NCBI RefSeq assembly: GCF_009914755.1
Contig: NC_060930.1
Source of the DNA: the human T2T-CHM13v2.0 reference genome, Homo sapiens
Reading direction: 5' to 3' (one strand)
DNA: 64,000 bases
Position 1 is the first letter of the stretch; each line of letters opens with the position of its first letter. Under the pieces are notes generated by a model. The model had not been told where the DNA came from. It was given only the letters and a program-made list of their open reading frames with translations, and searched no databases. The position numbers and the translations under genes are program-made. Shown here piece by piece: positions 6,782-64,000 of the stretch.

Positions 6782-6866
6782 CGTCTCGCCCAGCCCGGGA
6801 CCAGCCGAACAGCAGGAACAGAAGCGGGAGGCACAGAAGCAAAGCTGGGATGGCGGCTGCTGCCAT
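6782..6866 (-). CDS. RAET1L: RAET1L/ULBP6 exon 1 (signal peptide)
   Basis: ATG at 6866-6864; MAAAAIPALLLCLPLLFLLFGWSRAGRD then G|gtgagc; exons total 85+264+282+110=741 nt = 246 aa + stop; leader is RAET1L-type, not ULBP2-type (MAAAAATKILL). Confidence 0.96.
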
Positions 6867-6949
6867 TGGGGACCAGGAGGGCTGGGGACAAGAGATTTAA
6901 TCAAGGTGGATCCTGGAAGATGAAATCACCTCTGTGCTGAAAGGCTGGC

Positions 6950-6993
6950 TTATATACTGTTAGTTACTGGGGAATGTACCGGGGAATGAGTCA
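6950..6993 (-). promoter_or_regulatory. RAET1L core promoter: TATA box and AP-1 site in CpG-rich 5' region
   Basis: TATATAA at 6956-6950 (~85 nt upstream of ATG); TGAGTCA at 6987-6993; CpG-rich ~6440-7410. Confidence 0.65.
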
Positions 6994-7416
6994 CCTCGGT
7001 TCTGAAAAGCCAGATTTTAATGCTACTGGGCGTAGTCACTGGGCGCGTTCCACCTCTTCGTTTCATTGTCTGGACGAAATCCAGTTTCCATGCTAGTGTC
7101 CCTTCCCTTCTTCACCCGCTCCGGCAGCTTGGTGGCCTCGTGCCCGGGCCCCACTCCTGCCAGGACACGATTCCTTCCACGACAGACTCATTTAATCATT
7201 ATAGCATTTTTTATTAATGGTGAAGAAACGTGCAGAGGAATATTCAGCGGCCTCGGCGTCTCCTTGTCCCCGCCTGGGTCCGCGGCACTCTCCCTCCTTC
7301 CGCTTGCGCCGCGGGGTCCCTGGCTCACCCCGCCCTGGGCACAGCCATGGGCCTGTTCGCGTCCCCTCCACTACTTCCCCAGTCCCCGGTGGGCGTGGTT
7401 ACAGTCCGGGCTGGGT

Positions 7417-7735
7417 TTTATTTTTTATTTCTTTATCTATTTATGTATTTGGAGATGGGGTTTCTCTCTTATTGCACAGGCTGGAGTGCAACGGCCCGAT
7501 GTCGGCTCGCCGCAGCCTTGTCTCCTGGGTTCAAGCGATTCTCTTGCCTCAGCTTCTGGAGTAGCTGGGATTACGGGTGCCCACCACCAAGCCCGGCGAA
7601 TTGTTTGTAGTTTTGGTAGAGATGGGGTTTCACCTTGTTGGCCAGGCTGGTCTCAAACTCCTTTCCTCAGGTGATCCACCCACCTCGGCCTCCCAAAGTG
7701 CTGGGATTACAGGCATGAGTCAGCGTGCCCGGCCT
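7417..7735 (-). mobile_element. AluS
   Basis: Antisense Alu flanked by gggct(g/a)ggttttatt target-site duplication. Confidence 0.92.
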
Positions 7736-8299
7736 GGGCTAGGTTTTATTACAGAAACAGCAGGTAGGGTTTCAGAGGTTCAAAACAACATATTGTATAG
7801 TAAACAATTGGTGAAGATGGTAAATTCTATGTTCTATGTTTTTACCAAAATTAAGCAGCTTTAAAAATTATCTTAACAATTTATGTCTTGCTTCTGCTTC
7901 ACCCAGTGCAGACTGGCCAAAAGGCTGCTCATTAAAATCGAGGACAGCATTGAGGACCTCATCCCTAGAATCTCAACCTGTGACACGCTTGCTGATTTAG
8001 AAAGCTCCTCAGAGAGATTACCTCTGAGCTCCCAGTTCAGCAGCCGCCCTGGCCCAGGTCCACCGATGGCACAGGGGGCTCAGCAGAGCAGGTTCAACTG
8101 AAAGTTCCTAGTGGTTCCCAACTGTCAGCGCATTCTGCTGGCCTCTTCCCCCTGGGCAAAGAGCCAGCCATCCTTCAAAGCCGGGCACAAATACCCCCTC
8201 CCATGTGTGTCCTGCATGTTCCCACAATATAGAACACCCTCCTGCTCCCTGAGACCTGGGTTCACAGTGGGTGCATCCAGATCTCCCTGTGTGACAATT

Positions 8300-10240
8300 G
8301 CTCACACATTTCTTTGCCTCTCTGCTAGAAGCATGAGGTCTTTGAGAATATACTACATCCCTTCCTAAAAAGACCTAGTGAACAACTTGCTCAATCATGT
8401 AATCAATTGTGTTTCCACGAAGAGCAGGAGCCGAGGGAGGAGTCTACACACGTGTGGGGTTCACTTTCCAGCACACCAATCCGTGGCCAACCACACCTGA
8501 ATCCATGGCTGCACCCACACCTCTGCTCAGCCCCTAGATGGTCACTGGACTCATTATCAAAGGGGCAACCCCAAGTGCCCCCTTGTCTTAGTCACCATGA
8601 AGGCATCTAGACCTGTGGGCAGAAGGCAGAGGGAGGTGGGGGGCCCAGCGATCCCTGGCTGTTGGGATAAGGAATGGGCAGAGCCCCTGAGTCCCACACT
8701 GCCCCCAGCCACTCAGCCTTCTCCCTATTAAATGAGTAAAATAGACACAGACCTTCTTCTCCACACAGTTGTCATGTGGGGAGGATGCACACCTGGTGAC
8801 CAGCAATCCCCAGAGCCCTGAGGCTGCGGGAAAGGGGAGGAGGCCTAGACCAAGCCCAGGGACTGTCTCTGCTTCTGCACAGGGGGATGGGATAGCAGCC
8901 CCTCTGTGACTGTGCAGGGACACAGGAGCCTAGAAGTTTCTGGCCTGATGCACTAGAGCCTCTGTCCAGGAGGGGCCATGTGGAGGGTGGTCTGGAGGAC
9001 AACAGACACACGGGGGTGGGCAGTTCTCAGATCTGAGAGGGGCAGAGCTTGGCAGGTCCAGGGATCTGTGTGTGAGAAGTGCCTCCCATGCATAGGGCTG
9101 GGAACAGGAGCGTTTGAAAGGAGGGTACTGGGAAGGCCCTGGCAGCCCCCACCCCTGAGGCTGGGTGACCTGGGCCAGTGACCGGGGGACTGGGGGAACA
9201 GGAGGAAGGCAGAAGCCTGGCAGAAGAGTCCCAGGCAGCACAGCCAGGTGACAGTAGGAGGGGACTCTGTGCACACCTGGGCCCTCCTGCCTCACACCTG
9301 CTGCAGACTCTCGGCCACCAGATTCAGGCCAGCCCAGGATGGGGATAGACGTGGCTGAAAGGTGATTATAATGGCCGTGATCTAGAGAGCATGCATTCAG
9401 ACATGGAAGTCAGCTGGCATTGTGGCTGAATATTCTTGTGCAAGTTTCTTCACCTTTCTGGGCATGGATGTCCACATGTGGAAATTAATACTATGAACAC
9501 AGAGGAAATGAGCAGTTTATGCCAGGAACCCTGTCCTTGCACATGCTAAGGACTCAGGGAAGGTTTCCTATTTCACATGTGAGCCCTGCCTTCCATAACA
9601 TCAGCAAAGGCCAGACCCAACCAGATGACAGCTGGAGCCCTGCGATCATGCCATGGCCTCTTCATGGCCCTGGCGGCTCTTTGAATGGGTGTAAATGAAG
9701 GCAAAGACTGGACCCAGAGAGGACGGTGGTTTTACTCTCCATCACCAGGTAAGCCTAACATGATTTAAGGGTGGCTGGAGGCTGAGCAAATGACTGAATG
9801 AATGAGACAGTTGTGGGAGTGAATGGGGCTCAGGGGAAAACCCCAGGTGCAGAAGTGGAGCTGGAGTGGAGGTTGTAACCCCCAGAGGCCTGAAGGTGAG
9901 GATATCGTGGTTGGAGACCTCACTGCTGGCACAATTTGGAAATGTGAATGCCTGCCTGGGCGGCCACAAAGATTTTCCAAGGAAGAATAACTTTGGTTTG
10001 CAGCTGGTCTGGGCCCCAGCAGGATAAAATCTAGAAAACATTATTGAAGAAGGACAGCAAGCTGCTCTCTTTAGCCCCTTTGATTGAACCCAGAGGGTAC
10101 AATTGTGAGTGGTTGGGGCAGGAAAACCTTGCCCTTTAAACTTTGTTTAAAGGAACGAGCCTGAAATCAGGAATGGAAATGGGAAAAGGAAGGGTCAGGA
10201 GGGAAGGGAAGGAGAAAAGAAGGGGTGAGGGGCAGATACA
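8300..10240. repeat. Duplicated ULBP upstream block, paralogous to ~51000-53660
   Basis: Collinear similarity, e.g. ggacacaggagcctagaag...tggcctgatgcactagagcc at ~8917 and ~51678; parallel ORFs MWRVVWRTTDT in both copies. Confidence 0.9.
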
Positions 10241-10384
10241 AAAAAAGGGTCAGAGCGATTCCTCTGGATCTGGAGAAAGAGCAGGTGGGTGGGGCGTGGA
10301 CTGGCTCCAGCTGGTGGTTGGGAACCTGCCGAACCTAGCCCTGTAAAAGCCTGGGGGGCGTGGTCGAGACTCAGCATTGCCACT

Positions 10385-10460
10385 GTGCTTCCTCCTGGGC
10401 TGTCCTCCTCCTGGCTCCAGGTTCCCAGCAGCAGTGGCCACCATCACTGTGTTGGTCCTC
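10385..10460 (+). pseudogene. Possible degenerate 5'UTR/leader remnant of the RAET1M-like pseudogene
   Basis: ggctccaggttccca GCA GCA GTG GCC ACC ATC resembles ctcctggtcccca ATG GCA GCA GCC GCC ATC without the ATG; intron-1 homology resumes at ~10740. Confidence 0.4.
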
Positions 10461-11059
10461 GAAGGAGTAATGGCAGGAGGAGAGCAGTGAGAGGGCTGGA
10501 GAGGGCGAGATGATGGCAAAGCGCCCCCTCTCCAGCCTCACCTGCCCTTGGGAACTGGGAGCCCTGGCCAGCAGCAGGAAGCTGTAGTCTGGAGTGGTGG
10601 GGAAGAGGGAGGTGAGGAGGGATGAAATGTTTTCTGGCAGATTCTATACAGCTGGGGCCGGAGAGCATCTGTAAACCAAGGTTACTCTTCCCTGGTCATG
10701 TCTGGTGCGGGAGGCGGGGGACCTTGTGTGGCTAGGGGTATGGGAAAGTGGATGGTTCCGCAGGGAGTCAACCCCAGACCCCCGCCCTCAGCAGCCACAG
10801 GCCTGCTCTGCTCTCATCCACTCTCCACCTCAAAAACTCTCCAGCACCCCCAGGGCTCCCTGCCCTTGAACTTCCCCCTGCACTTTGCTGCAGACACTTA
10901 CCTGCATCCAGGAGATCAGCAGACACTTCCCACCCCTCCCCTCACCGTTCACTGCCACCACCCAAGTCACATCCTTTTACTCCCTCTCTACCCAACCTTG
11001 TCACCTTTCGTCACCCCATAGGCCCACCTCACCCCCAAAGCCATTGAAGGAGGCTTCAG

Positions 11060-11536
11060 TGAGGCAGGCGAATAGGGTCTGGATGTAGGGAACCTAAGGG
11101 TGATTTGCTCTGACTTCTTAGAAGTGAATCAAAAGGAGCCCCACCTCTCTGTGCCCAAGCAACAAAAGGACCAGAGGATACTCCCTTGACAATCCGCGAC
11201 CTCTCCACTTTCAACTCTCTTGCAGATGAAAAGCAGAAATTACCTCTGATTGGTCCCCTTCTGCAACCAGTCTTCAGGTGCATAGGGTGTAACTTTGTAA
11301 CTTCACTTCAGTCTCTGATTGTTCCCTTGGGCACAGGCCACTCTCTCATTTGCATAGTGTGTAACCAAGTAACCAATGGGAAACCACTAAGGGTATTCCA
11401 ACACCAGAAAATTCTGTAACCAGCTGCATTCTTGAGGGGCTTCCCCCAGCCAGCTACCACTCAGTCAGGTGTACTTTAATTTCAGTAAGTCTGTGCTTTC
11501 ATTTTTCCTTTTTATTCTTTCATTGTTTTGTTCGTG
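11060..11536 (+). mobile_element. MER51-type ERV1 LTR (3' truncated)
   Basis: Begins tgaggcaggcgaatagggtctgg...agggaacctaagg, matching the recalled MER51 start; absent from RAET1L intron 1. Confidence 0.7.
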
Positions 11537-13699
11537 ACCCTAGGAATGCTGGTGAGTAGAGGCATCCACTCTTCCCTTGGGTCCCAGCCCTGCCTGTTCT
11601 TCCTAATGGGGAGCCAGCATCATAGAAAATAGTCACTATGTAAACAGGGGTTGGCAAAACCTTTCTAGAAAGGGAAGGTGGGAGGCACTTTGATCTTTGC
11701 AGGCCATGGTTTCTCTGTCTCTGTGTCAAGTTTTGTTCCTTTATAGAGCAACAGCAGGCCAGGACAACCTGCAAATGACAGAGGGACCAGATTTGAACAC
11801 TGTCCTAGGTTGCTGACCCAAATAAATGGATTACAGTGTCCCAGCAATTGGTGCCCCTTCCCTTAAGGTGTCATCTCCAAGTGGTGTCTCAGCTGCTGGT
11901 TGAAGAATCAGAAGTGGTTCCCATCCTGCCTGTGGCTTCTGGGTGGTTGGATGTAATGGCAGTGGGGTTTCATGGTTTGAAGCCTACTCTCCCCTCCTTG
12001 GCTGCTGAGTAGCTTCTTTGCTCTATGGAGGCCATCAGGGATCCTCCCAGAAACCACAGCTGTGATCTGAGGGTGAGGGATTGCAGCCATGTGGTGTCCT
12101 GGGGAGAGGAGCCAACTGATTGTGCAGCTTCTTGTTTCCCTGTGGCCTTGCTTCTGCCCATCCCAGGATAACCACCTTCGTATTCTCACTGCGGGGCCTA
12201 TCTTCTTAATGACCTAGAGAGTGAAGAGCACACTCGGTGACAGGCAGCTCTGAGGCTGTGTGATCACTGCCCTCCCATGGCTAAAGGCCCCATCTCTGCC
12301 AGTACTCTACAGGAGCCACTTTTTAATGTTGGGATTTCCCTGCTGTCAGTGTCATTGCCTTGCCTCTGTAACACTAACCATCCATGTTGTGATTTTCCAA
12401 TTAGTAATTGCAACCACAGGTACCTCTAGGAGATTAGGGTGTCCTGGGTCCTAGGATGCTCAAAACAGGTCCAGCCTCCTTCATCATTTATGGATTGTCT
12501 GTGAGTGCTTTTGAGCTACAACAGCAGAGTTAAGTAGTTATGACAGAGAATATATTCCCTGCAAACCTTTAAGAGTTTACAAAATCACCATTCACAGCAA
12601 ACTCTAGAGGCCATAAATATCTATGCGGAAGGCCAGAAAGACTCATTGCACTTGAGGTGGGGTTGAAAGGTCCTTCCTCATTGGAACCTGGTGTCTCCTT
12701 CTAGTAATGGCTTCAGAGTCTGAGAAGTGGCTTGGTTTTGCAAGTTGGTCAGAGAAGCCCGGTTTTTAATAGACTGCCTAGTTTCAGCCTCCAGGTCATC
12801 CATCCTTGTGTTTAATGTTCACTTGTTATAATTATATCAATCCAGCTGTATCCGGGCTGGGTCTCTGTGTTGCTTGCCTCTCAGATCTCCTTGTTTTATA
12901 TGAGCCATTGGCATAGCTCTCTGTGGCTTACGTCCCGAGCAGGCATTGTGACTTCTCCAATTCTTTCCATCATTGCACCTTCCACGCTACTGATAGTTGA
13001 GCCCAGGATTTTTCATCCCATTACTCCTGGGAGCCCATTTCAAAAACAGCATCTCCTGTCTGCAACCCTGGCCTTCAGCAACAGGCATCCCTGGGCTTCT
13101 TCCCATTCTGCTTCTTTCTCTCAGGGCCTTCTTTATATGTTGGGTGAACAGGAGTCCTCCAGGCTTCCCATGACCACCGTAGATGGACATTGTTCTGGAT
13201 TTTCACACTCAGACCCCTCCAGCATGGGCACTTCTCTGACTCTTTGATCCCTTGCTCTGTTCCCTGCCTTAGAAGTTCTGGATTTTCTGTTTTTTGCTGT
13301 ATGGATCATCTCTTTGTTCAAGGTTGCCAGAATGCATCCTCTTAGCAGATGGGCACCATCACCAGGTGCTTTACCAACATGTTAAATCCTGTGACCATGA
13401 TAATTAACTCTCCATCATCCAACTTGGATTCTGTCCTCACCCCACCCTCAACATGTTCAGCATCCTCAGAGGCAGCCCCTCCCCTCTCCCACCTCCTGCT
13501 AAGGATCCTTTGCCATCCAGGCCCTTCCTCCTCTAGCAGGCCAGGCACCTCCCCGGCATGGTCATGTGTTAACAATGTGGACATAGGGGCACTGGGACAT
13601 TTCTTGGGACATGTGGTTTCTCAGCAGGCAGGGTCTTCCTCCTCCTCCTTGTCTTCAAGCAAGGGAGGAGCACTCGCCTATACCTGGTGGAGGCCATAG

Positions 13700-14907
<1,208 letters not shown>

Positions 14908-15309
14908 GTAACTGACAGCAGAACACTGGGAGCGCCCTGGAGATGCCGTTGAAGTACACCCTTGTGTGTGTGTGTGGGGGGGGGTGTAGGTTTATGTGTG
15001 AGAGTGTGTGTGAGTGTGAGTGTGTGTGCGACTGTGAACATGACCCCCTCATGGGAGGCTCCTCCTAGTCATGCTGGCATGCCTGTGCTCTCCCATCCTC
15101 CTCTCCCTTCTCCCTCCTGACTCTTCTTCCTCACTGCACTTGCTTCTGCTCCACTCACTGTGGATTTCTCACCAGCCTCGAAACTGTGGGTGTCACTGTG
15201 TTTTCAGACCTTTCTCCTTAGTGTTCCCTCTCTTGAGAATTACTTTTCCTTTCCTCTCTGTGGTCTGTTTCTAGAAATCCATCAAAGCCACCTCCAATGG
15301 CAATGAACA

Positions 15310-47718: not shown

Positions 47719-50327
47719 CTATACTCACATCCGTCAGCACAGGACCCTGCCAGGGAGGTGGCAGGCCCACTACAGGAAGAAGGACTTAGATGGCAGGATC
47801 TGCAGGAGCAGCCCAGGTGGACTGCAAGAGGCGGGAGAGTGTGGGAGGGCACCCTGAGGATGTTGGAGCGTGGTGCAGTGGGTACGATGTAGTTAACATT
47901 GGATAAGGATGAGTTCATTTATTATGGGTAACAAGACATGGTAAGTTCCCTGGAATGTGGTCAGCTGCTAGTAGGTTGCCCTTGGAACCTTGGAAAAAGG
48001 AATGACCCACACCGCATGAAACAGAAAACCCAGGTCTTACGTGGCAGGTTGTACAGGAAGGAACAAAATACTAAGAGAAGTGCCCATGCCAGAGTGACTG
48101 CAGTATGAAAATCCAGAACAATGTTCACCCTCTGTGCTCAAGGGAAGCCTGGAAGACTCCTGTTTACCTAGCATATAAAGAAGGCCCCAGGAGAAGGCAG
48201 CAGACTGTCAAGAAGCTCAGGGATGCCTGTTGCTGAAGCCCAGGGTCAGGGGTAGGAGATGCTCTTCCTGAAATGGGCTCCCGGTAGTAATGGGGATGGA
48301 AAATCCTGAAATAAGAGATCTCAAGTGGAGGCCGTCAACTGTCAGCAGGAAGGAGGGTGCAATGATGGAAATAATTAGAGAAGTCACAATGCTAGCTGGG
48401 GTCCTCAGTCTTACAAAGCTATGCCCATGGCTCATAGAACAAAAGGGTCCAAGATCCAAAAGAGATGGAGACTCCACCCGGATACTACTAGATTTAAATA
48501 ATTACCACAAAGACAAAATGCAAGGATGGATGACCAGGAGGCTGAAAGTTGTCACCCCGGGAAATAACTGAGCTCCCTCGCCCAGCTTTGAGAACTGAGC
48601 CACATCTCAGACGCAGAGTCCATTACTAGAAGGAGAGCCCAGAGCCCCTGGTGGGCTCCTTCAACCCCACAGCAATTGCAATGACTCCTTCAGCCTCCCC
48701 CACAGAGCCAGATGGGTAGTCACTCTGGTAACTGTACACCATGAAACAGCAAATACTCAGACACTCCTAGTGGACACAGTGTGTGATCCGAGCTCTTCCC
48801 AGGGATGTGAAGCATTAACTTGCTCCCCTGTTACTCATGAGGTGCATTTGGGGCAAAGTAACAGATGGACTTCTGTGTCAGGTCCAGCTTAGAGGGATGT
48901 GCTGGGTTCATAGACCCATTCAATGGTAATTTCACATTTCCTGGATTTCTACCGGGAATGGATAGTGTTTGTAGTTAATGTAGTAACTATTATAGTTTGT
49001 GCTGGTCATATGACCTCCCCTGTCACTACTCAACTCTGCTCTTATAGCTGGGATGCAGCCATACACACTCTGTGATGAGGGGTGTGGCTGGACCTGCCAC
49101 TACAGCTATTTGACCCTGGACTCCCTAAGATCCCAGAAGCATGTGTGGTTGGAAAAGGTGCTATGTGGATTTCATGGCTATTCCCAACCACAGAATCCAA
49201 CAGGGTCCCCTAGTGCTCAGAAGCAAAGCTGTGCCACTCACAGCAGTGAAATCCCCTCATTTAAAAGTGGCTCCTGCTGTGGTCCTGGGCCCCTGTGGAG
49301 ATGGGCCTCCAGCTATGGGAGGGCAGTGACCACACAGCCTCAGAGCTGCCCATCACAGGGTGGGCTCCTCACCCTTTAGGTCATTAGGAAGATAGGCCCC
49401 ACAGTGAGAAGACACAGGTGGGTCTCCTGGGATGGGCAGGAGCAGGGCCACAGGGAACCAAGAAGCTGCACAAGCAGTTGGCTCTGATCCCCAGGACACC
49501 ACATGGCTACACCCCCCCACCCTCAGGTCACACCTGAGGCTTCAGGGAGGGTCCCTGAATGGCCCCTGGGGACCGTTAATGCTACTCAGCAACAAAGGAG
49601 GGGAGCAGTAGGCCCCGAACCATGGGACTCCCCCTCACATTCATCACATCCACACCTCCCAGAAGCCGCAGGCAGGGTAGGACACACTTGTGACTCTTCA
49701 ACTTACACAACTTAGAGATGACACCCTAGGGGATGGGGCAGCAATTGCCAGGACACAGCATGTGCCCTCATCTGGAGTCTGCAACCTAGGACAGGGTCCA
49801 TTTCAGGTTTCTCTTTTACTTGCAGGTTGCCATTGCCTGCTGTTGCTCTACAAAGGGACGGGACTTGACACAGAGACAGAGAACTCACGGCCAGCAAGGA
49901 CCAAAGTGCCTTCAGCCTTTCCTTTCTAGAAAGGGTTTGCTGACTCCTGTCTGCTTAGTGACTATTCTATATGACGCTGGTGTCACCCATGTCTTGACCC
50001 CAGCTCGGGTTCCGGGGGCTCTGGTTTCTCCTTCCCGAGGACGAGTGGGGCTGCGGGGTTGCACCAGGGATCCCCTCCCCACCTCGCCCTCTGCAGCTTT
50101 TTGGCCCCTCCACCCTCCTGCGGTTCTTTTTTCGCCTTCTTTGACCCCCCTCCTGCCCTGCAGGGCAAGCAGCAGCCGCAGGAAGCGGACCTGGCGAAAA
50201 AGAGCAGCGAATCGGAACTGAGCGTGGGGGCAGTCCGGGGAGATCGCGCCGGTCCTTCTAGAAGGCTTCCCTCCTCTGAAACCCGCTGCAGTCCACAGCC
50301 CCCCAGGTTTGGCCCCCGCCCCGCTTA

Positions 50328-51000
<673 letters not shown>

Positions 51001-52699
51001 GACCTTCTTTGCCTCTCCACTAAAAGCATGAGGAATATATAGAATATATATAGAATAAAGTATATTCTATATCCCTTTATGACTTCTGGGAAAAAAAAGA
51101 AAGAAAAGAAAGCCCTAGTGGCCTACCGTGATCAGTGATCAAATGATCAATTGTGTTTCCATGGAGAGCAGAAGCCGAGGGAGGGTCTACGCATGCGTGG
51201 GGCTCACTTTGCTGTACACCCATCTGTGGCCAGCTACACGCAAATCCATGGCTGCACGCGCATCTCTGCCCTGTCCCTGGATGGTGACTGCAGCCATCCT
51301 CAAAGCGGCAACCCGAGTGTATCCTCGTCTCAGTCACCATGGAAACATCTAGATCTGTGGGCAGAAGCCAGAGGGAGGTGATGGGCCCAGTGGCCCTTGG
51401 CCGCAAGGGAGGGCTTTAGCCTGGGATGAGGAGTGGACAGAGATCTTGAGTGCCACTCAGGCCCCAGCCACTCAGCCCATTCCCTATTGAATGAGAAAAA
51501 TCGGCACAGACCTCCCACTCCGTACAGTCTTCATGTTGGGATCACCTGCACCTGGTGATCATCAATCCCGAGGGTCCTGAGGCTGTGGGAAAGAGGAGGA
51601 GGCCTGGACAAAGCCCAGGGCCTGTTTCTGCTTCAGGACAGAGTCATGGGAGGGCAGCCACCTCTGTGACTGAGCAGGGACACAGGAGCCTAGAAGATTC
51701 TGGCCTGATGCACTAGAGCCCCTGTGCAGGAGGGGCCATGTGGAGGGTAGTTTGGAGGACAACAGACACACAAGGGTGGGCAGTTCTCAGATTTGGGAGG
51801 GGCAGAGCTTGGCGGGTCCCAGGATCTGTGTGTGAGAAGAGCCTCCCATGTACAGGGCTGGGGGCAGGAGCCCAGGTTAGTCCTGGGAGGAGGCCTCTGG
51901 GAAGGCCCTGGCAGCACCACCCCGAGGCCAGGTGACCTGGGCCAGTGACTGGGGGAACAGGAGGAAGGTAGAAGGAGGCTGGCAGGAGAGCCCCAAGCAG
52001 GACAGGAGGAGGGGCTTTTGTGCACACCTGGGCCCTCCTGACTCACCCCTGCTGCAGGCATCTGGCCAACAGACTCAGGCCTGCCCAGGATGGGGATAGA
52101 AGTGGCCCAAATGTTATTGTAATGGCCGGGATCTAGAGATCATGCATTCAGATATGGAAGTCAGCTGATATTGTGGCTGAATATTCCTGTGCAAGCTTCT
52201 TCAGCTTTCTAGGAATGGATGTCTGCATGTGGAAAATGACAAATGCTATGAACACAGATGAAATGAGCAGATTCTACAAGGAACCCTGTCCTTGCACATG
52301 CTAAGGACCCAGGGCAGGTCTCCTATTTCAGTTGTGAGGCCTCCAGCTCTCCCTGAAGTCAGCAACTGCCAGGCCCACCCTGAGGAGAGCTGGATCTCTG
52401 AGCCCAGGCCATGGCCTCTTCATGGCCCTGGGGGCGCTGTGATGGGGAGGAAATGAAAACAAGACCCACCATCAAGACTCAGGCATGTTTTTCAGACCCA
52501 CAGAGGATGATTTTTCTCTCCATCACCTGGTGAGCCTGACGTGATGTAAGGGTGGTTGGAAGCTGAGTGAACCAGTGAATGAATGAGACAGTTGTGGGAG
52601 TGAATGGGACTCAGAAGAATAGCACAGGTTCAGAGGGGAGCTGGAGCGGAGGTTGTAACCCCCAGCGGCCTGAAGGTGGCAGCATCGAGGTTGGTAATT

Positions 52700-53548
<849 letters not shown>

Positions 53549-53709
53549 TGAAATACTTGCCTTTTAAGCAAAGAAAGAACGAGTCTGAAAGTGGGAATGG
53601 AAATGGGAAAAGATAACCGGGCCAGGAGGAAAGAGGAGAAAAGAAGGGTTGGGGTCTGAGAGGTAGCAAGGATTCAAGCATTTCCTGCCCCATGGCCTGG
53701 AGTTGCAAG

Positions 53710-53998
53710 TGGGCGGGGCAGGGCTACTGGAGCTGTGACAGCCTTGAGGGCCAGGGTGACTCACGCAGCGGCTCTCTGCTTCCTCTGGGTGTGTCACACC
53801 CTGGGCTCCTGGTCCCCAGTGGCACAGGTGCTGGCGCGAAGTTGGGTGTTTGCCTCCAGCCTCTGCTCCTGCTGCCAGGCTGGTCCAGGGCAGGTTGGGG
53901 CGGGGCAGTGAGTTCTGGGGCTGGACCCTAAGCAGGGGTGTGGGCAAATATGGGGGTCTTGGACTGCAGGGGGTCAGGAGAGGGGAGGCTTCTGGAAG
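53710..53998 (+). pseudogene. Orphan ULBP leader exon with promoter motifs and start of intron 1
   Basis: ctcctggtcccca GTG GCA...TGC CTC CAG CCT CTG CTC CTG CTG CCA GGC TGG TCC AGG GCA GGT TGG = CLQPLLLLPGWSRAGW; gtgagt donor at 53908; the next ~90 nt match the start of ULBP3 intron 1. Confidence 0.8.
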
Positions 53999-54369
53999 TT
54001 CCTGAAGGTTGCCCTGGGATTTAATGCGACATTGCTAGCTAGAGCCAGCTTGGCATGGGGAGAGCGATGCGAGACTGATGAAAAGCGTGCAGCCTGATTT
54101 AAAGCCAAACCCTGAGTCCTTTCCAAGAACAATAAAGCATATTGTAGTCGCTAAAAGAAACAAATACAAAAAAAATTAAAAAGTAGCCTTTCTTCGCAGA
54201 TACAGCACGTTTTATTTTTAATCTTTACATTTAACATTGTCTTTTGAAAATAGTGTATATTATTTGATATTTTAAAATCCAACCTGGGAGTTTCAGTGAT
54301 TTATGTGATAAGTTTAGTAGTTCACTTTTATTGTAATTACTACTGTTTAGGATTTAGCTCTGCCATCTT

Positions 54370-54990
54370 TTTTATTTATTATTTATTTATTTTTATTTAT
54401 TTATTTTTTCTCTGTCGCCCAGGCTGTAGTGCAGTGGCACGATCTCGGCTTGATGCAAGCTCCTCCTCCTGGGTTCATACCGTTCTCCTGCTTCAGCCTC
54501 CCGAGTAACTGGGACTATAGGCGCCCGCCACCACGCCCAGCTAGTTTTTTTTTTTTTTTTTTTTTGTATTTTTAGTAGAGACGAGGTTTCACCTTGTTAG
54601 CCAGGATGGTCTCAATCTCCTGACCTTGTGATCCACCCACCTCTGCCTCCCATAGTGCTGGGATTACAGGCATGAGCCACCGTGCCCAGCCTATCTATTT
54701 ATTTTTTTTAAGATATGGGGTCTTCCTCTGTTGCCCAGGTTGGAGTGCAGCGGCGTGGTCATAGCTCACTGCAGCCTCTAACTCCTGGGCTCAGGCCATC
54801 TTACTGCCTCAGCCTCCGAGTAGCCAGGACTACAAGCATGCGCCACCCACTGGGCTAATTTTCTATATTTGTCTGTAGAGATGGGGTCTGCCTATATTGC
54901 CCAGGCTGGTCTTGAACTCCTGAGCTCAAGCGATCCTCCTGCCTTGGCCTCCCAAAGTGCAGGGATTACAGGCGTGAGCCACTGTGCCTG
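54370..54990 (-). mobile_element. Two tandem antisense Alus
   Basis: AluY-like followed by AluJ-like. Confidence 0.9.
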
Positions 54991-55785
54991 GTGCACATGT
55001 ATTTATTGTGTTTTTTATTGCTGGCATTTCCCCTCCGTAACTGTGTTCTATTTAGTATACTGAGGGTTTTTTTTCTGTTGGTTTAAAAGTTATACATTCT
55101 AGTTTTCTTCTCAGGGTGGCTGCCCTTAACCTATGACTCATACCAATATGTGTCACATTTATTGGTATTATTGGTTTTGTTTTATTCCTAATTTTAGAAG
55201 TCTCAGCATGTTTTCCTATCCCTTTCGTGTGCCACCTCCAGCCCCATTTTCCTGATATCTTTCCTAGCTGTAATTCTCGGTTATTCTTAGCTACACTTCT
55301 TTGTTTCTGTGATCCTAACTTCACATTTCCCCTTGTTGTGAAATAACAGTAATCTGGAATAGATTCCTTAGTCACTTGTCCTCCTCGGTTCTCTTGTCGT
55401 ATCTCCTGTGTTTCTCTCGCTATTGAGGTAACTTCCTCTAAACTATTTCCAACTTGGATCTTTAGGAGGCAAATATCCTTCAAGTTTTCTACGTTTTGAA
55501 TATTTCTAATACACTGTGGTGGGCAGGATTCGGCAGCTGTCCCTTCAAGTTTCCTGTACCTTTCTAGAACAATATGTTCTAGAAAACACTGATGATAGGA
55601 CAACTAACGGCTGTCTTAGCCTGTTTGTTTGAGCCTGGTGCATACCAGCAGCAGGAAAATCCAGTATTTTAAGCAAAGAAGGAATGCATATGAAAGTGGG
55701 AATGGAAATGGGAAAGGAAAGGGGACAAGGAAGAAGGGGATGGAGATAATAAGGGGTGAGGGCCTAGAGAAACCAGCTGCTCCTC

Positions 55786-55868
55786 GTCTAGGCACCGCTA
55801 GTCTAGGTACTGTGAGTCTAGGTACCACTAGTCTGGGCACTGAGAGTCTAGGTACCGCTAGTCTAGGC
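55786..55868 (+). repeat. 15-bp minisatellite (~5.5 copies)
   Basis: gtctaggcaccgcta / gtctaggtactgtga / gtctaggtaccacta / gtctgggcactgaga / gtctaggtaccgcta / gtctaggc. Confidence 0.9.
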
Positions 55869-55879
55869 TCTGCACAGTC

Positions 55880-56400
55880 ATAATTAAAGCTACTCATCAG
55901 TTGACCTTAAAATAGAGAGATTTTACTGGATTCTCTGAGTGGGCCCAGTGCCATTACATGAGCTCTAAAAAGCAGAGAATTTTCTCAGGCTGGAGCCAAG
56001 AAATATGCGTCTAATGTCAGAGAGATTCTAAGCATGAGAAGGATTCCATGCACTGTTGCTGGCTCTGAGATGTGGGGGCCATGAGCAAGACTGGAGAGGG
56101 GCCTCTGGGAGTTAGGGAAGGGCTGCAGCTGACAGCCTGCAGGGAAGCTGAGACCTCAGTCCCACAGGTCCAAGGACTGGATTCTGCCAGCAACCTGAGT
56201 GCACTTGGAAGCAGATACTTCCTAGAACCTCCCAATCAGAGCCCAGCGGGTGGACACCTTGACCTTGACCTTGAGGAACTGGGAGCAGAGAAACAAATCA
56301 AGCCATCTCAGACTTGCAACCTAGAGGACTGTGAAATAATAAAGATGTACAGATTTAAGCAGATAAGTATGTGGCAATTTGTTATAGCTGCAACAGAAAA
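55880..56400 (+). mobile_element. MLT1 (MaLR) LTR fragment
   Basis: agttgaccttaaaatagagagatt...ggattctgccagcaacctgagt...gtggcaatttgttatagc. Confidence 0.7.
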
Positions 56401-58049
56401 GATATCTTCCTGTTTAAATGAGAATTTGACTGGATATAAAATTCTAGGCTGAAGTTCTTTTCCTTCATATTTTAGAAAGAATACTCCATTGTTATCTTGC
56501 AACCAGGGTTGCTGTTGTGTAGTCTGAGGGCCAAATGTTTCCTTCTTTCTTCCATTGTTTCTCTGGGGTAATATGGGGGAGGGAGCCAGAAGCCTGAGAT
56601 TCTTTCCTGTCTTCATCCAGTGGATTTGTACCGTTCCAGGCTGTTAGTCACAGTCTCAAAGAGGTGGAGAATGGTTTCTAGTTTAACCTACCTTTTCATA
56701 GAAGCACTTGTAGATTGGACAAGTTTATTGGTTTTCTCTTATTCGACTACTGCTAGTCTTCTCTCCTTCTATCTTTTATAAATATTAAATTTATTGAGAT
56801 GTAATTTACAGACAATACTCCTTTGTGAACATAGGAGCTTAAAGTCTCTTATCTTTGGGAGTATATTGAAACATGTAGGCATTTGGCCATATGATAAGGC
56901 ATGTTCCCAAGCTATAAACATTAAACAGATGAATGATATTACTTCAGTCATGAATCATCTTACTAACATGCCAATTCTGTAGAAAATCACATTTCTAGCA
57001 GTGCTTGCTTCAGGTTTGCAGGAGAGAAAAACAACAATGTTTTCACTGGACATTGGCTTTTAGACAAAATGAATGCTAGAACTCTATTAAATTCATTTTT
57101 ACTTCCTATCATTTCTATATTTTATAGATTTCATAAAATCGGCCCACAGTCTTAAATTTATGATAATTGTAATAGATATCTTAGTAAAATACCCAATCTC
57201 TTTCAGTTACTGGAAACACTTATAAATTCTAGGCTTTAACAACAAATAGCACATTGTAGAACAGCAGTGTCGTTTAAAAACTGAACTTAGTTGAGTTAAT
57301 CAGACGTGACAGGATATTTTATGACCCTAACAGAAGCTTAATGAACAATGTTGAATAGATTTCAATACTTTTTATAATATATCTAAACTGTGTCAATTAT
57401 GGTAACACTGCCTTTGAGAAGAAATCATCAGTTTTGGATTTAACATACAGGATGGCACCCTAGAAAATGTTAAAACGTCAGGAGAATTGTACCTTTAAGA
57501 GTGGAAATGAGTAATGAAAATACACATTACCAGAGTCACCTCCTGGGATGCCTGGACATTTACTTGGGATTTGAGCATTTTTCTGCCTAGAAACGGCAAA
57601 ACTGACTGTTTAGCTGTAACTGGCAGGCACCACGTGCCATAGCAACAACAGAGCAAGAAAACCAGGAAAAGCTTTTGCTCAAAATAAAGTTATTTCAAAT
57701 CTTGTTTTCAAAGCTTTTTTGCTGAGGTGCCTCTTCCACCCAAGAAACTAACAAAGAGCCACAGCAGCACCAATGATGACCAGCGAGAGCAGCACTGTGC
57801 ATGTAAAATCCAGTAAAGCACTCTGCCCCGAGGATTCATCACTGCAGCTTTCCTAAGGGTTAGAATGTTTTCTACCTGACTGATCCGGGAATGTGCAAGC
57901 CAAAAAATTAACAAAAATGATCCCTGGCTTGTGGAGATCCACAGGCATTGAACAGAATCAAACATAATATCTCTGCAGAACACAACCTCACGTAGGCAAC
58001 AGAGGTTTCCTGCAGTAAGAAAGCCATGCCACAAAAAGCTCAGAAACCT

Positions 58050-59190
58050 ACAGAATGTGTCGAGTCAAACCACAGTAAGTGAGTGAGCCAATCCCACAGA
58101 GTAGGTTCGGCCCTGAAGAACTACAGATATTAGAACTACAAAGAAAATAGTAAAATATGTATCCTTAAATCATTAAAGACATAATAAAACACACTGCAAA
58201 TATTGAGACATTGTCAAAAAAGACTAGTTGTATCTAAAATAGAAAAAACCAAGCAGCACTTACAGCAATGAAAAATATGTTAATTAAAATTTGAAACTCA
58301 ACACACTGATGAAGCAGCATATTAAATAGAGGATGAAGTCACTGAACTGGATGGATCTGAAGAAATCATTCAAAATTTGGTAGAGAGAGAGTTTCATGCT
58401 GAAACTGCAAGAGAGAAGTGTAAAGATATGGATGTACAATGAAAAAGGCCAACCTGCCTCTAACTGGACTTCCAAAAGGAGAGCAGAAAATGAGGGAGAG
58501 GAAATTTTCAAAGAGCTAATGGCTAAGAACTTTTCAGATTTTATGAAAGACATAGATTCTCAATTTTAGGAAACATAACAAATCTCAATTAGAATAAATA
58601 AAAATAAATTCACTCCTAGGTGCATTGTGATGAAATTGCAGAATATCTTAAAGGTCGTCTTCAAGAAGAATATCTTTGAAGAGAACAACTTAAAAGAGAA
58701 AAATTTAAAAGCAACTGTTGATAAAATACAATCAATAGGAAAGACAATTTGATAACAGCCTCCTAGCCAGTTTTTAAAATTTGCAGCCATTGTCTCTCAA
58801 AATATGCCTTCTGTGTTGTCTTTTACCTGTGCTTTTAGGATTCCAATTAAATGTGGGGTGAACCATTCCATAGTGTCTGCCACAGCAGCTGTGGCTTCTG
58901 AATTTTACTGTCTCTTCTAAATTTTTCTACCCTTCGGTCTTCCTGTACTGCATTCCAAATGGTTTCTCTTGACCCGCCTTCCAGTTTACACTTCTCTTTT
59001 CAGCTCTGTCTAATTTGCTATTAAAGCCATCTGTTGAGTTCTTCATTCCAGTTATTTAGTTTTATACTTATAGATTATTCGATAGCCCATGTATCTTACA
59101 TTTGAAGTAATGAATTTTTTTCTGTTGTTTTTTCATTTTTTTAAAGTTATTGAAACATAGTAAGCATAGTTATTTTTAAATCCCTGCCTG
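58050..59190. mobile_element. Old L1M ORF1-region fragments in opposite orientations
   Basis: A-rich sense part (~58050-58760) followed by a T-rich antisense part. Confidence 0.6.
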
Positions 59191-59199
59191 ATAATTATT

Positions 59200-60666
<1,467 letters not shown>

Positions 60667-62181
60667 TTACCTTCCTCCAGAAATGAATTTCATTTGCTTA
60701 TATCAGGCACTTGGTAGCTATAAAATTGCTTGAATTTTGCTGCAGGAATTGAGATATTTTGGGACATTCAGAAGCCTTGAACCTGGACTGCCTTCTGTTT
60801 GAAGACTGGTTGATCTTCAGTCCACCTTTACTCCGAGGGTCCAGTCCCACTCTTGGCAGACTCTGGACTCCAACATCTGTTTGCATAGCCCCATGAAGCC
60901 ATCCAAAGCCCATGTGAGCCACTAGGATCAAAAGGCTGCTGACTCTTTACCACATCACTACTGCCACAGTTAGGAAGCCACCAAGACAAGGAAGGAATCC
61001 ATCCATAATCAGAAACCTACCACCCTCAGAAGCCACATCCGCTGTTGCCTGCTCCAGACCCCACTGTGCCTGCGAAGATTTTCAGCTTCAAAGTGGATGC
61101 CACGTGCCCTGCTCTCAGCACCTCAGAGCCAGCGACCAGAGCCCAAGACCTCAGCTAATGCTGCCCAGAAACCTGAATATCTCCCCTGCTGGGCTTGGCA
61201 GCAAGAGCAGCAGATGCCTGGTCCCTGCTGCAATTCCCCCACATTAGAGTGACTGAATCTGCACCACATCCTGACTCTGGTTGTAAAGGAGTCTGGGAAA
61301 TGTAGTTTTTAGCTTTCCTGTTTCTGTAGTATAGGAAGGCACAGCAGAAAGCAGGTGAATGGATTTATCCTTCCCCCATCTGCCCTCCAAGTACATACAA
61401 TTATAATACCATTTGGTTTAAGTTTCAAAATATGCAAAATGATACCATATCTTGCTTACTGATATATCATACACGTGTAAATTCATGTACATCCATACAC
61501 CTGTATCCATGTATCTACATATGTGCATATCCATATCTAAGTATACAATTGCCACAAAGACAGTAAGATCAGTAGTGGTTTCAAGCACCGGCCCTGCAGT
61601 CAGACTGCCTGCTTCAAAACCTGTGTTTGTGTGACATGGAGCATGCACGTTTCCTCAGTCTTGATTGCAAAGCTTATGCTTCTCTGTGTGTAAAATAGGC
61701 ATCATGATAGTACCCACCTCAATATATTGCTGTGGGCCTCAAATAAGCCAATGCCTGTAATAGACTTAGCATGGTGCTTGGCTCGTGGTAATAAATACTC
61801 AGTGAATTGTAGCTCTTTCCATCATAGATAGCAGAAGGCCTAGGTGGTCAACCCAACTCACTGTATCAGCCTGACAAGCCACTTAACTCCTCCGGGTGTT
61901 CATTTCTTGTCTTTCAGATGAGGCAGTTGCCCTAAATGAGGTGAGTTCCTAAGCCAATGTCTCCAGGTCCTTAGGGGAGAGTGAGGTTATTTCCTTGGCA
62001 TTTTATGGTGGGCATTGGAGAATCTGGCTTCCAGAGTTTTTATTGTTATTTTTTTCTTACAAACTCTTGTCGTTCTAACTTATCTCTAGATGCTACCTGA
62101 GAGAAACAGAAGATAAAACTACCACCAGGACGCACCAGCAGCATGACACAGGGCCAGTGACTTCGGCTGCTAAAATCAAGA

Positions 62182-62200
62182 CGTACACCAGAGGGCGCTG
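62182..62200 (+). promoter_or_regulatory. Candidate CTCF site
   Basis: cgtACACCAGAGGGCGCTG closely matches the CTCF core CCASYAGRKGGCRS. Confidence 0.55.
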
Positions 62201-62460
62201 CAGTTAAAGAGCGAGGCAGAGGTGAGCGGGCTGCCCGGGTCCAGTCTCCTAGGGTCTAGAAAAGCTATGAGCACAGGCCTTGGGGAGGCGGTAGGAGGAC
62301 CTGAGGCTTCCATGAAAACCAAGGGCAAACATACTGTTTCATTCAGGCTTCGGCTACCTGGATGTGTGTTCCTCGGGAGAGTGGTTGTGTGTGGTTTTCG
62401 CACACCGATCTGGATTGTTCTTATAAAGCTGAAAGGGCCACGTTCATAAAACAAAAATAA

Positions 62461-63999
<1,539 letters not shown>

Positions 64000-64000
64000 A

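What the first reader, a model, noticed from the sequence alone, without database searches (positions are those of the whole stretch)
53692..53998. Orphan ULBP leader exon facing away from ULBP3, with promoter motifs retained
Seen: the + strand reads ctcctggtcccca GTG GCA (ATG->GTG at 53819), encodes ...CLQPLLLLPGWSRAGW (ULBP leaders: CLPLL.LL.GWSRAG), and has a gtgagt donor at 53908. About 90 nt then match ULBP3 intron 1 (taagc...ggactgcag...gaggcttctggaag). A GC box (53711-53718) and a perfect AP-1 site TGACTCA (53757-53763) remain, at the same ~56-nt spacing as TGATTCA before the ULBP3 ATG. An upstream ATG at 53692 is in frame with the leader. No alpha1/alpha2 exons follow in the window. 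Inference: a lost ULBP gene whose promoter may survive as a ULBP3 enhancer or divergent lncRNA start.
Basis: partly seen in the sequence, partly recalled or inferred. Interest (0 to 1): 0.72.

Follow-up and report, generated by a model that had tools for sequence, protein, structure and literature searches.

The report
Triplicated dead ULBP leader-exon stub
This is a real but long-dead fragment of a ULBP/RAET1 immune-ligand gene (promoter, leader exon and start of intron 1), one of three near-identical copies that each sit back-to-back with a ULBP-type gene, and nothing in the sequence shows it still works.

Summary
53799-53998 (+) aligns to RAET1L exon 1 plus intron 1 at 77.7%, and 53711-53998 aligns to the ULBP3 5' end at 70.9%. 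All motif coordinates check out.

It is not a unique orphan. The genome holds two further copies, about 87% identical over about 830 bp. One lies 3.6 kb upstream of RAET1K and one 3.2 kb upstream of ULBP1, each divergent from its gene. A degraded fourth copy forms the unannotated 5' end of the pseudogene RAET1M, head-to-head with RAET1L.

All three stubs share these features:
- the ATG>GTG change
- a 1-nt frameshift
- the GC box
- TGACTCA
- the GTGAGT donor
- the break 91 nt into intron 1

The gene was therefore dead and truncated before the roughly 20-kb module (gene, 3.3-kb spacer, stub, 6.4 kb beyond) multiplied. The stubs form their own clade, apart from all six gene exon 1s. No alpha1 exon accompanies any stub anywhere in the genome.

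The stub's CpG island has decayed (o/e 0.18, against 0.85 in ULBP3), and its divergence among copies is ordinary. The TGAYTCA motif overlaps the RefSeq transcript start in three of the six live genes.

Most likely this is a neutral pseudogene fragment. Residual enhancer or promoter activity is untested.

The parts
53690..53762 (+). Relic core promoter, with the GC box GGGCGGGG at 53711-53718 and TGACTCA at 53757-53763.
   Evidence: It aligns to the ULBP3 promoter at 34/52 identical positions. Both motifs are identical in all three stubs. Among the three copies, 4 of 63 non-CpG columns vary.
53763..53907 (+). Relic exon 1. Its start is predicted by homology to the RefSeq transcript starts of ULBP3 and RAET1L. 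It is 145 nt long, against 143 and 146 nt in those genes. It carries GTG at 53819-53821 in place of ATG, a 1-nt deletion after GTGGCA, and a 5-nt insertion near 53895 that is private to this copy.
   Evidence: The coding-equivalent part is 62% identical to ULBP3 and 70% to RAET1L.
53908..53998 (+). Stub of intron 1, beginning with the consensus donor CAG|GTGAGT.
   Evidence: It is 74/90 identical to ULBP3 and 74/89 to RAET1L. Homology to all six gene copies stops at profile positions 356-361, which corresponds to about 53998.
53999..54185 (+). Sequence just past the breakpoint. 54018-54165 is a fragment of a dispersed repeat. It is followed by AATAAA and an A-rich tail that ends near 54185.
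   Evidence: 54018-54165 matches 8 other loci on chromosomes 1, 11, 16 and 17 at 72-80%. The sequence was read. The K-side and ULBP1-side copies share this stretch at 89-91%.
50491..53689 (.). Spacer of 3.3 kb between the ULBP3 transcript start and the stub. It is colinear with the spacers upstream of RAET1L, RAET1K and ULBP1.
   Evidence: For example, 51109-52694 matches 8369-9914 at 79% over 1614 bp, and 50616-52738 matches the RAET1K side at 82.7% over 2189 bp.
54186..60374 (.). Remainder of the duplicated module beyond the stub. It is shared with the RAET1K-side and ULBP1-side modules.
   Evidence: 54698-57670 is 93.2% and 92.2% identical to the other two modules. 59955-60374 is 87% and 85.5% identical. 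Within the fetched cluster, 55022-59160 has only three copies.
10216..10456 (+). Degraded fourth copy of the stub: the promoter plus the first ~45 nt of exon 1. It forms the unannotated 5' end of the pseudogene RAET1M and lies head-to-head with RAET1L.
   Evidence: The stub-specific profile hits 10216-10433 at E=6.4e-9. The colinear alignment of 53574-53824 with 10150-10433 gives 186/243 identical, z=28. The gene-type profile hits 10414-10456 at E=0.18.
10754..15302 (+). Body of RAET1M, an inverted copy of RAET1L running from intron 1 to intron 3. RefSeq annotates only 14163-14960.
   Evidence: 11535-13719 matches RAET1L 6014-3749 (1765/2145 identical). 10754-10984 matches 6414-6190 at 81%.

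Best explanation
53690-53998 is an unprocessed pseudogene fragment. It comprises the promoter, leader exon and first 91 nt of intron 1 of an old, separate RAET1/ULBP lineage that stood head-to-head, about 3.3 kb away, with the ancestor of ULBP3, ULBP1 and RAET1K.

It lost its start codon, its reading frame and everything beyond intron position +91. After that, the whole module (gene, spacer, stub and about 6.4 kb beyond) was copied. This produced three stubs, next to ULBP3, RAET1K and ULBP1.

In the older RAET1L module, the same position carries the decayed 5' end of the pseudogene RAET1M.

The stub has since drifted neutrally. Its CpG island has decayed, which by inference points to long-term germline methylation. 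The GC box, TGACTCA and splice donor are leftovers that have not yet been hit by mutation.

Shown here: the homology, the copy number, the shared lesions, the absence of a gene body and the CpG decay. Inferred: the head-to-head ancestral gene, the order of events and the lack of present function.
For: Copies and their extent:
- A whole-genome DNA search with 53700-53998 gives 7 matches, all in the cluster. Two cover the full query at 85% and 83%.
- When the query is extended, homology runs through the break: 53563-54391 against the RAET1K side at 87.2% over 836 bp, and against the ULBP1 side at 86.7% over 830 bp. It continues to about 60374.

Shared lesions and features:
- The three-way alignment shows that all three copies share GTG, the 1-nt deletion, the GC box, GGTGACTCAC, GTGAGT and the post-break sequence.

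Phylogeny:
- In an ML tree of 9 exon-1 regions, the three stubs form a 100/100 clade against the six genes, with topology (ULBP3-side,(ULBP1-side,RAET1K-side)) at 95/91.

Link to RAET1M:
- The stub profile hits the RAET1M 5' end at E=6.4e-9.
- RAET1M intron 1 is homologous to RAET1L intron 1.

No gene body:
- None of the genome's 9 alpha1 exons lies next to a stub.

Decay and neutrality:
- CpG o/e is 0.18-0.28 in the three stubs and 0.43-0.85 in the six live 5' ends.
- Non-CpG variable sites number 37/266 (0.139) in the stub and 817/7025 (0.116) module-wide.
- According to the hub's gene table, RefSeq lists no transcript or functional element at this stub, and no gene at the other two stub positions.

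Relative timing:
- Two Alus (52688-53043 and 53291-53549) are present in all three modules but absent from the RAET1L module. This orders the events.
Against: - The promoter core (53690-53762) is less diverged among the three copies (4/63) than its immediate flanks (54/256). The post-hoc Fisher test gives p=0.006.
- The CpG inside the GC box survives in all three copies.
- The donor site is intact in 3 of 3 copies.
- The ULBP3 sequence homologous to about 53940-53998 overlaps a RefSeq 'enhancer' (50235-50314; hub table and the alignment).
- No expression or chromatin data could be consulted, so lack of function is inferred only.
- RAET1M intron 1 is closer to RAET1L (K2P 0.22) than RAET1L is to ULBP3 (0.29). 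The simple 'ancestral pair' history explains this only if gene conversion, or a later inverted duplication, is also assumed.
Confidence: 0.75

Rival explanations
1. The stub is an exapted cis-regulatory element. It would be an Sp1/AP-1-responsive enhancer, or a divergent start of a short unstable or lncRNA transcript, contributing to stress induction of ULBP3. Its copies would do the same for ULBP1 and RAET1K.
For: - The GC box and a perfect TGACTCA are kept in 3 of 3 copies, and so is the GTGAGT donor.
- The promoter core is less diverged than its immediate flanks (4/63 against 54/256, p=0.006).
- Sp1 and Sp3 are reported as basal regulators of ULBP1-3 (PMC3968767, passage read).
- The homologous stretch of ULBP3 intron 1 overlaps a RefSeq enhancer (hub table).
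Against: - CpG o/e is 0.18, at background level.
- 11-27% of same-size windows in the module are at least as conserved.
- The exon part is among the most diverged segments (25/122).
- RefSeq annotates no transcript or functional element at any of the 3 stubs (hub table).
- The better-conserved block of the spacer is 51880-52640 (67/728 against 142/891). It overlaps the RefSeq enhancer 51512-52379 and is the likelier upstream regulator.
- In the live genes, the TGAYTCA motif sits at the transcript start rather than upstream.
Confidence: 0.2
2. The stub is a recent local inverted partial duplication of ULBP3's own 5' end.
For: It lies only 3.3 kb from ULBP3 exon 1, in inverted orientation, and aligns to it.
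Against: - It is less similar to ULBP3 exon 1 (72%) than ULBP3 is to RAET1L (85%).
- It groups with the other two stubs at 100/100 support, outside all six gene exon 1s.
- The same arrangement recurs at ULBP1, RAET1K and RAET1L.
Confidence: 0.02
3. The open frame from ATG 53692 to 53907 (72 codons) encodes a small protein with a leader-like tail.
For: The frame is open and contains the leader-like VCLQPLLLLPGWSRAGW.
Against: - The ATG reads AGG in the RAET1K-side copy.
- The frame arises from a frameshift through a former promoter and 5'UTR.
- The 5-nt insertion is private to this copy.
- No transcript is annotated here.
Confidence: 0.01

Closest known systems
RAET1M (retinoic acid early transcript 1M pseudogene), window 14163-14960 as annotated
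   Same: Its unannotated 5' end (10216-10456) is the positional and sequence homologue of the stub's promoter and exon-1 start. It is likewise head-to-head with a RAET1 gene, at about 3.5 kb.
   Different: RAET1M keeps intron 1 and the alpha1 and alpha2 exons. It has lost the 3' part of exon 1 and the first part of the intron. The stub keeps exactly those parts and lacks the body.
Exon 1 and intron 1 start of the live genes ULBP3, RAET1L, ULBP1, ULBP2, RAET1G, and of the transcribed pseudogene RAET1K
   Same: Same architecture: a GC-rich promoter, a TGAYTCA motif about 55 nt before the start codon, a leader exon of about 145 nt, and a GTGAG donor. Identity is 72-79%.
   Different: The stub has no ATG, is frameshifted, has a decayed CpG island (o/e 0.18 against 0.43-0.85) and has no downstream exons. 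It belongs to a separate clade.
Truncated class I-type gene fragments in duplicated immune clusters, such as the MICC-G pseudogenes
   Same: These are unprocessed fragments carried along by block duplication in an MHC class I-like family. PMC8044845 (passage read) lists 5 MIC pseudogenes and 4 RAET1 pseudogenes.
   Different: The comparison rests on that passage and on recall; no MIC fragment was examined here. This stub is not among the 10 named RAET1 loci in the hub table or in that passage.
RefSeq functional element 'enhancer' 50235-50314 in ULBP3 intron 1
   Same: It is homologous to about 53940-53998 of the stub. The intron stub as a whole is 82% identical to ULBP3.
   Different: The annotation applies to the ULBP3 copy only. 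Its experimental basis was not visible here, and the stub copy carries no annotation.

Membership tests
RAET1/ULBP gene family (as an unprocessed pseudogene fragment) | Leader exon homologous to the family's exon 1 | tested here: met
   150/193 identical to RAET1L, z=47. Profile E=1.7e-22. RAET1L residues 9-26 align at 67%.
RAET1/ULBP gene family (as an unprocessed pseudogene fragment) | Flanking intron 1 homology, showing a genomic rather than retroposed origin | tested here: met
   The 91-nt stub is 82-83% identical to ULBP3 and RAET1L intron 1 and has a GTGAGT donor.
RAET1/ULBP gene family (as an unprocessed pseudogene fragment) | Alpha1 and alpha2 domain exons | tested here: not met
   None in 54000-64000. 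Genome-wide there are 9 alpha1 exons, none next to any stub.
RAET1/ULBP gene family (as an unprocessed pseudogene fragment) | Intact start codon and reading frame | tested here: not met
   GTG replaces ATG, and there is a 1-nt deletion. Both are shared by all three stubs.
RAET1/ULBP gene family (as an unprocessed pseudogene fragment) | Location within the chromosome 6q RAET1 cluster | tested here: met
   All 7 genome matches lie at chr6:151.12-151.27 Mb (hub table).
Active CpG-island promoter of the ULBP type | CpG-island composition (o/e of about 0.6 or more) | tested here: not met
   o/e 0.18 with 6 CpGs in 349 bp, against 0.85 with 33 CpGs in ULBP3. The other stubs are at 0.19-0.28.
Active CpG-island promoter of the ULBP type | Sp1/Sp3 GC box | tested here: met
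   GGGCGGGG at 53711-53718, identical in 3 of 3 stubs. This establishes the motif only; binding is not testable here.
Active CpG-island promoter of the ULBP type | Transcription start and transcript evidence | not testable with these tools
   No CAGE or RNA data were available. RefSeq lists no transcript here (hub table).
AP-1-bound enhancer | TGA(C/G)TCA consensus | tested here: met
   TGACTCA at 53757-53763, present in 3 of 3 stubs.
AP-1-bound enhancer | Conservation above the neutral background | tested here: inconclusive
   4/63 against flanks 54/256 gives p=0.006 (post hoc), but 11-27% of module windows are equally conserved.
AP-1-bound enhancer | Open chromatin and FOS/JUN occupancy | not testable with these tools
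   No chromatin data were available.
Bidirectional promoter pair | Divergent starts within about 1 kb (a criterion recalled from the literature) | tested here: not met
   The predicted stub start near 53763 is about 3.3 kb from the ULBP3 transcript start at 50490.

The most novel reading that the evidence does not exclude
The three stubs are not inert. Each would keep a GC-box/TGACTCA core promoter and a strong 5' splice site because it fires as a stress-responsive (AP-1/Sp1) divergent start or enhancer. That would give ULBP3, ULBP1 and RAET1K a shared upstream regulatory unit inherited from an ancestral head-to-head gene pair.
Probability: 0.12. Interest if true: 0.5.

Novelty: new member of a known kind. 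Interest (0 to 1): 0.25.

Why it matters
The stub adds an unannotated relic lineage to the RAET1/ULBP cluster of NKG2D ligands: three stubs plus the true 5' end of RAET1M.

It also shows that the cluster grew by copying a module that already contained a gene and the dead 5' end of a divergent partner. That is useful for annotation, for dating the duplications, and for designing unique probes, guides or read mapping in a region with 87-99% identical copies.

For ULBP3 regulation, the sequence gives no reason to prefer the stub over the better-conserved block at 51.9-52.6 kb, which overlaps an annotated RefSeq enhancer.

Tried and rejected
- **Continuation of intron-1 homology past 53998.** Local alignments of 53990-58000 against RAET1L, ULBP3 and RAET1M intron 1 gave only chance scores (z 0.6-2.3) or an Alu.
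- **Matching the stub's exon-3' part and intron to RAET1M 10425-11000.** Not significant (z=2.2).
- **Stub-like copies upstream of RAET1G and ULBP2.** None found with the stub profile at E<=1 over window -150000..64000. Only their own exon 1s were hit.
- **Literature.** Searches for RAET1M, RAET1K, RAET1J and RAET1F; for RAET1 cluster, pseudogenes and duplication; for ULBP3 promoter AP-1/Sp1; and for gene fragment, head-to-head and segmental duplication found no open-access description of these stubs.
  - The clone-name search 'RP11-350J20' used a recalled name. It returned only listings of no use for locating a lncRNA.
  - The cattle ULBP paper (PMC1574312, term search only) says nothing on head-to-head fragments.
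  - The original cluster paper (Radosavljevic 2002) and the Carapito & Bahram 2015 review are not held. I cannot exclude that they mention the fragments.
- **Dating in years.** Not attempted beyond relative order, because gene conversion is evident: the RAET1K-side and ULBP1-side modules are 97-99% identical in parts.

Full report

Yes. Reading 53400-54400 and scanning it by script confirms each feature at the stated place:
- the GC box GGGCGGGG at 53711-53718
- TGACTCA at 53757-53763
- GTG at 53819-53821, in the context ctcctggtcccca|GTG GCA. ULBP3 has ...ctggtctaca|ATG GCA.
- the leader-like translation VCLQPLLLLPGWSRAGW
- the donor GTGAGT at 53908-53913
- an ATG at 53692 in the same frame as the leader, with that frame open from 53680 to 53907

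The leader is out of frame with the GTG because one base is missing after GTGGCA. TGACTCA ends 55 nt before the GTG. ULBP3's TGATTCA (50496-50490) ends 54 nt before its ATG.

The homology is far beyond chance:
- 53799-53998 against RAET1L 6886-6689: 150/193 identical, z=47 against 200 shuffles.
- 53711-53998 against ULBP3 50545-50255: 197/278 identical, z=33.
- A profile built from ULBP3 and RAET1L alone finds 53803-53998 at E=1.7e-22.

Similarity to both genes stops sharply after ...ggcttctggaag at 53998, although ULBP3 and RAET1L continue to match each other past that point.

No alpha1 or alpha2 exon follows the stub in the window.

**2. It is not a lone orphan.**

The DNA upstream of ULBP3 (50300-53662) is colinear, in the same orientation, with the DNA upstream of RAET1L (6734-10230). 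For example, 51109-52694 matches 8369-9914 at 79% over 1614 bp.

The colinear alignment runs on through the relic promoter: 53574-53824 against 10150-10433, 186/243 identical, z=28.

Beyond that point in the RAET1L copy lies DNA homologous, in inverted orientation, to RAET1L intron 1 through intron 3. 10754-15302 matches RAET1L 6414-1931, and the core stretch 11535-13719 has 1765/2145 identical positions. So the pseudogene RAET1M, which RefSeq annotates only at 14163-14960, has an intron 1 and a decayed stub-type 5' end at 10216-10456. It stands head-to-head with RAET1L.

The window's own assembly could be searched. The query 53700-53998 gave 7 matches, all in the cluster:
- the query itself
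- two full-length copies at 85% and 83%
- exon 1 of ULBP1, RAET1L, RAET1G and ULBP2

I then fetched chr6:151068001-151218000. A longer query shows that the two copies match well past the break:
- 53563-54391 against window -10130..-9315 (+): 87.2% over 836 bp.
- 53563-54380 against window -57653..-58465 (-): 86.7% over 830 bp.

By coordinates, the first copy lies about 3.6 kb upstream of and divergent from RAET1K (transcript start at -13450, minus strand). The second lies about 3.2 kb upstream of and divergent from ULBP1 (transcript start at -54714, plus strand). The window's stub lies 3.3 kb from the ULBP3 start.

The shared module continues beyond the stub. 54698-57670 is 93.2% and 92.2% identical to the other two modules, and homology ends near 60374. 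On the other side, the module includes the gene bodies at 81-90%.

**3. State of the three stubs.**

A three-way alignment shows that all three copies share:
- GTGGGCGGGG
- GGTGACTCAC
- GTG in place of ATG
- the 1-nt deletion
- GTGAGT
- the same sequence after the break

Some features are private to individual copies. A 5-nt insertion near 53895 is found only in the ULBP3-side stub. The upstream ATG 53692 reads AGG in the RAET1K-side stub.

The gene was therefore already dead and truncated when the module multiplied.

Two Alus (52688-53043 and 53291-53549) are shared by the three modules but absent from the RAET1L module. A third Alu (54436-54635) is private to the ULBP3 module. This gives the order of events:
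1. The RAET1L-type and ULBP3-type modules split.
2. The two shared Alus inserted. Alus are primate-specific (established knowledge).
3. The ULBP3-type module was copied into three.

An ML tree of the nine full-length exon-1 regions puts the three stubs in a 100/100 clade apart from all six genes. Within the clade, the topology is (ULBP3-side,(ULBP1-side,RAET1K-side)) at 95/91. This fits the 97-99% identity between the RAET1K and ULBP1 modules in parts of their length.

A stub-specific profile finds no stub upstream of RAET1G or ULBP2. It does find the RAET1M 5' end at E=6.4e-9.

Genome-wide, the ULBP3 alpha1 exon finds 9 alpha1 exons in the cluster plus two chance-level MHC hits. None of the 9 adjoins a stub.

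**4. The break.**

About 20 nt after the break, 54018-54165 matches 8 dispersed loci on four other chromosomes at 72-80%. That stretch is followed by AATAAA and an A-rich tail ending near 54185. It looks like a retroposed repeat fragment. All three modules share it, at 89-91% between copies.

Whether a retroposition-associated deletion removed the gene body cannot be decided. Nothing downstream matches any RAET1 intron or 3' flank.

**5. Is there any sign of function?**

Composition argues against a maintained CpG-island promoter:
- CpG o/e is 0.18 (6 CpGs in 349 bp). The homologous stretch is at 0.85 in ULBP3 and 0.43 in RAET1L, and the whole window is at 0.27.
- The other two stubs are at 0.19 and 0.28. 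ULBP1, RAET1K, ULBP2 and RAET1G are at 0.55-0.73.
- Only 2 of 22 aligned ULBP3 CpGs survive in the stub.

Divergence among the three copies, counted at non-CpG columns, is unremarkable overall:

| Segment | Variable / total | Fraction |
|---|---|---|
| Whole stub | 37/266 | 0.139 |
| Whole module | 817/7025 | 0.116 |
| Stub exon | 25/122 | 0.205 |
| Stub intron | 8/81 | 0.099 |
| Stub promoter core | 4/63 | 0.063 |

The promoter core is lower than its immediate flanks (54/256; post-hoc Fisher p=0.006). However, 27% of all same-size windows in the module, and 11% of those in the spacer-to-stub part, are as conserved or more so. This is a hint, not evidence.

The high identity of the intron stub to ULBP3 and RAET1L (82-83%) can be explained without any constraint on the stub. 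If that stretch is conserved in the live genes, the stub's similarity to them stays high; I infer this from the four-way alignment, where ULBP3 and RAET1L look nearly identical there, though I did not compute that identity for the stretch alone. In ULBP3 it overlaps a RefSeq 'enhancer' (50235-50314, hub table).

The 'AP-1' motif overlaps the RefSeq 5' end in ULBP2, RAET1L and ULBP3, which is 3 of the 6 genes checked. By homology it marks the start region, so the predicted stub start is near 53763. That gives an exon of 145 nt, against 143 and 146 nt in ULBP3 and RAET1L.

According to the hub table, RefSeq lists no transcript or functional element at this stub, and no gene at the other two stub positions.

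The best-conserved part of the spacer is 51880-52640 (67/728 variable against 142/891 in the rest of the spacer, p=5e-5). It overlaps the RefSeq enhancer 51512-52379 and is the more plausible upstream regulator of ULBP3.

**6. History, and its loose end.**

The simplest reading is an ancestral head-to-head pair. The partner lineage survives as RAET1M in the RAET1L module and as stubs in the ULBP3-type modules.

One result does not fit this cleanly. In intron 1, RAET1M is closer to RAET1L (K2P 0.22) than RAET1L is to ULBP3 (0.29) or RAET1M is to ULBP3 (0.33). In the exon-1 region and the spacer, by contrast, RAET1L and ULBP3 differ by only 0.17-0.20.

Two explanations are possible. Gene conversion may have acted between the inverted neighbours RAET1L and RAET1M. 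Alternatively, a later inverted duplication of RAET1L may have been joined to a pre-existing stub. These data cannot separate the two. In addition, RAET1M 10456-10754 aligns to neither type.

**7. Comparison with what is known.**

The reviews I read in passages state that there are ten RAET1 loci, six expressed and four pseudogenes (PMC8044845). They also state that Sp1 and Sp3 drive basal ULBP1-3 transcription (PMC3968767).

Six literature searches found no open-access description of these stubs. The original cluster paper and a major review are not held, so prior description cannot be excluded.

The stub meets the tests for a RAET1-family unprocessed pseudogene fragment: exon 1 and intron 1 homology, and location in the cluster. 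It fails those for a gene (no ATG, no intact frame, no alpha1/alpha2 exons) and for a CpG-island promoter.

**8. Verdict.**

The feature is real and was described correctly. It is better understood as one of three copies of an anciently truncated RAET1-type 5' end, carried inside a duplicated module.

It is most likely inert (confidence about 0.75 for the whole account). A 0.2 chance remains of residual regulatory activity, which only chromatin and transcription data or perturbation can settle. Interest is modest: it is useful for annotating the cluster and reconstructing its evolution, but it is not surprising.

Noticed in passing
window 10216-15302 (+): RAET1M is much longer than its RefSeq span (14163-14960). 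It has an inverted copy of RAET1L intron 1 through intron 3 at 10754-15302, and a stub-type promoter and exon-1 start at 10216-10456. The stretch 10456-10754 aligns to neither gene-type nor stub-type sequence.
   Followed up: yes
window 51880-52640: This is the most conserved part of the ULBP3 upstream spacer among the three modules (67/728 variable non-CpG sites, against 142/891 in 50836-51879; p=5e-5). It overlaps the RefSeq enhancer 51512-52379.
   Followed up: partly
window 54698-57670 and 59955-60374: About 3 kb beyond the stub is 92-93% identical among the three modules, higher than the gene bodies (81-90%). Parts of the RAET1K-side and ULBP1-side copies are 97-99% identical to each other. 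This fits a recent large inverted duplication of ULBP2+ULBP1 against RAET1L+RAET1K, or gene conversion.
   Followed up: partly
G000:C6:151189608-151189721 (window -28392..-28279, minus strand): A further partial exon-1-like relic covering the coding part only (E=1.8e-7 with the gene profile, 1.4e-7 with the stub profile). It lies among rearranged ULBP3-like fragments between ULBP1 and RAET1K and is not in the hub's gene list.
   Followed up: no
G000:C6:151176819-151177067 (window -41181..-40933, plus strand): An alpha1-like exon with one in-frame TGA (39% identical to ULBP3 alpha1, E=2e-11), near BTF3P10. It is probably another RAET1 pseudogene and is not named in the hub's list.
   Followed up: no
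window 53147-53247 + 53562-53662, and 55574-55770: A segment of about 200 bp just upstream of the stub, split here by the Alu at 53291-53549, recurs about 2 kb downstream at 73-84% identity. It also recurs at equivalent places in the other modules. In the window, the downstream copy is followed by a short tandem repeat (ctagtctaggtacc-like) at about 55780-55900.
   Followed up: partly
window 54018-54165 and 55881-56406: Two fragments of dispersed repeats: 8 and at least 39 other genomic matches respectively, at 66-81% identity. NCBI's soft-masking list does not flag them. The first abuts the stub's breakpoint and ends in an A-rich tail.
   Followed up: partly
window 50490-50496 and 6921-6928; window -76646..-76640: The conserved TGAYT(T)CA motif overlaps the RefSeq transcript 5' end in ULBP3, RAET1L and ULBP2. 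RAET1L also has TATATAA about 29 nt upstream and a second, perfect TGACTCA at -66.
   Followed up: partly
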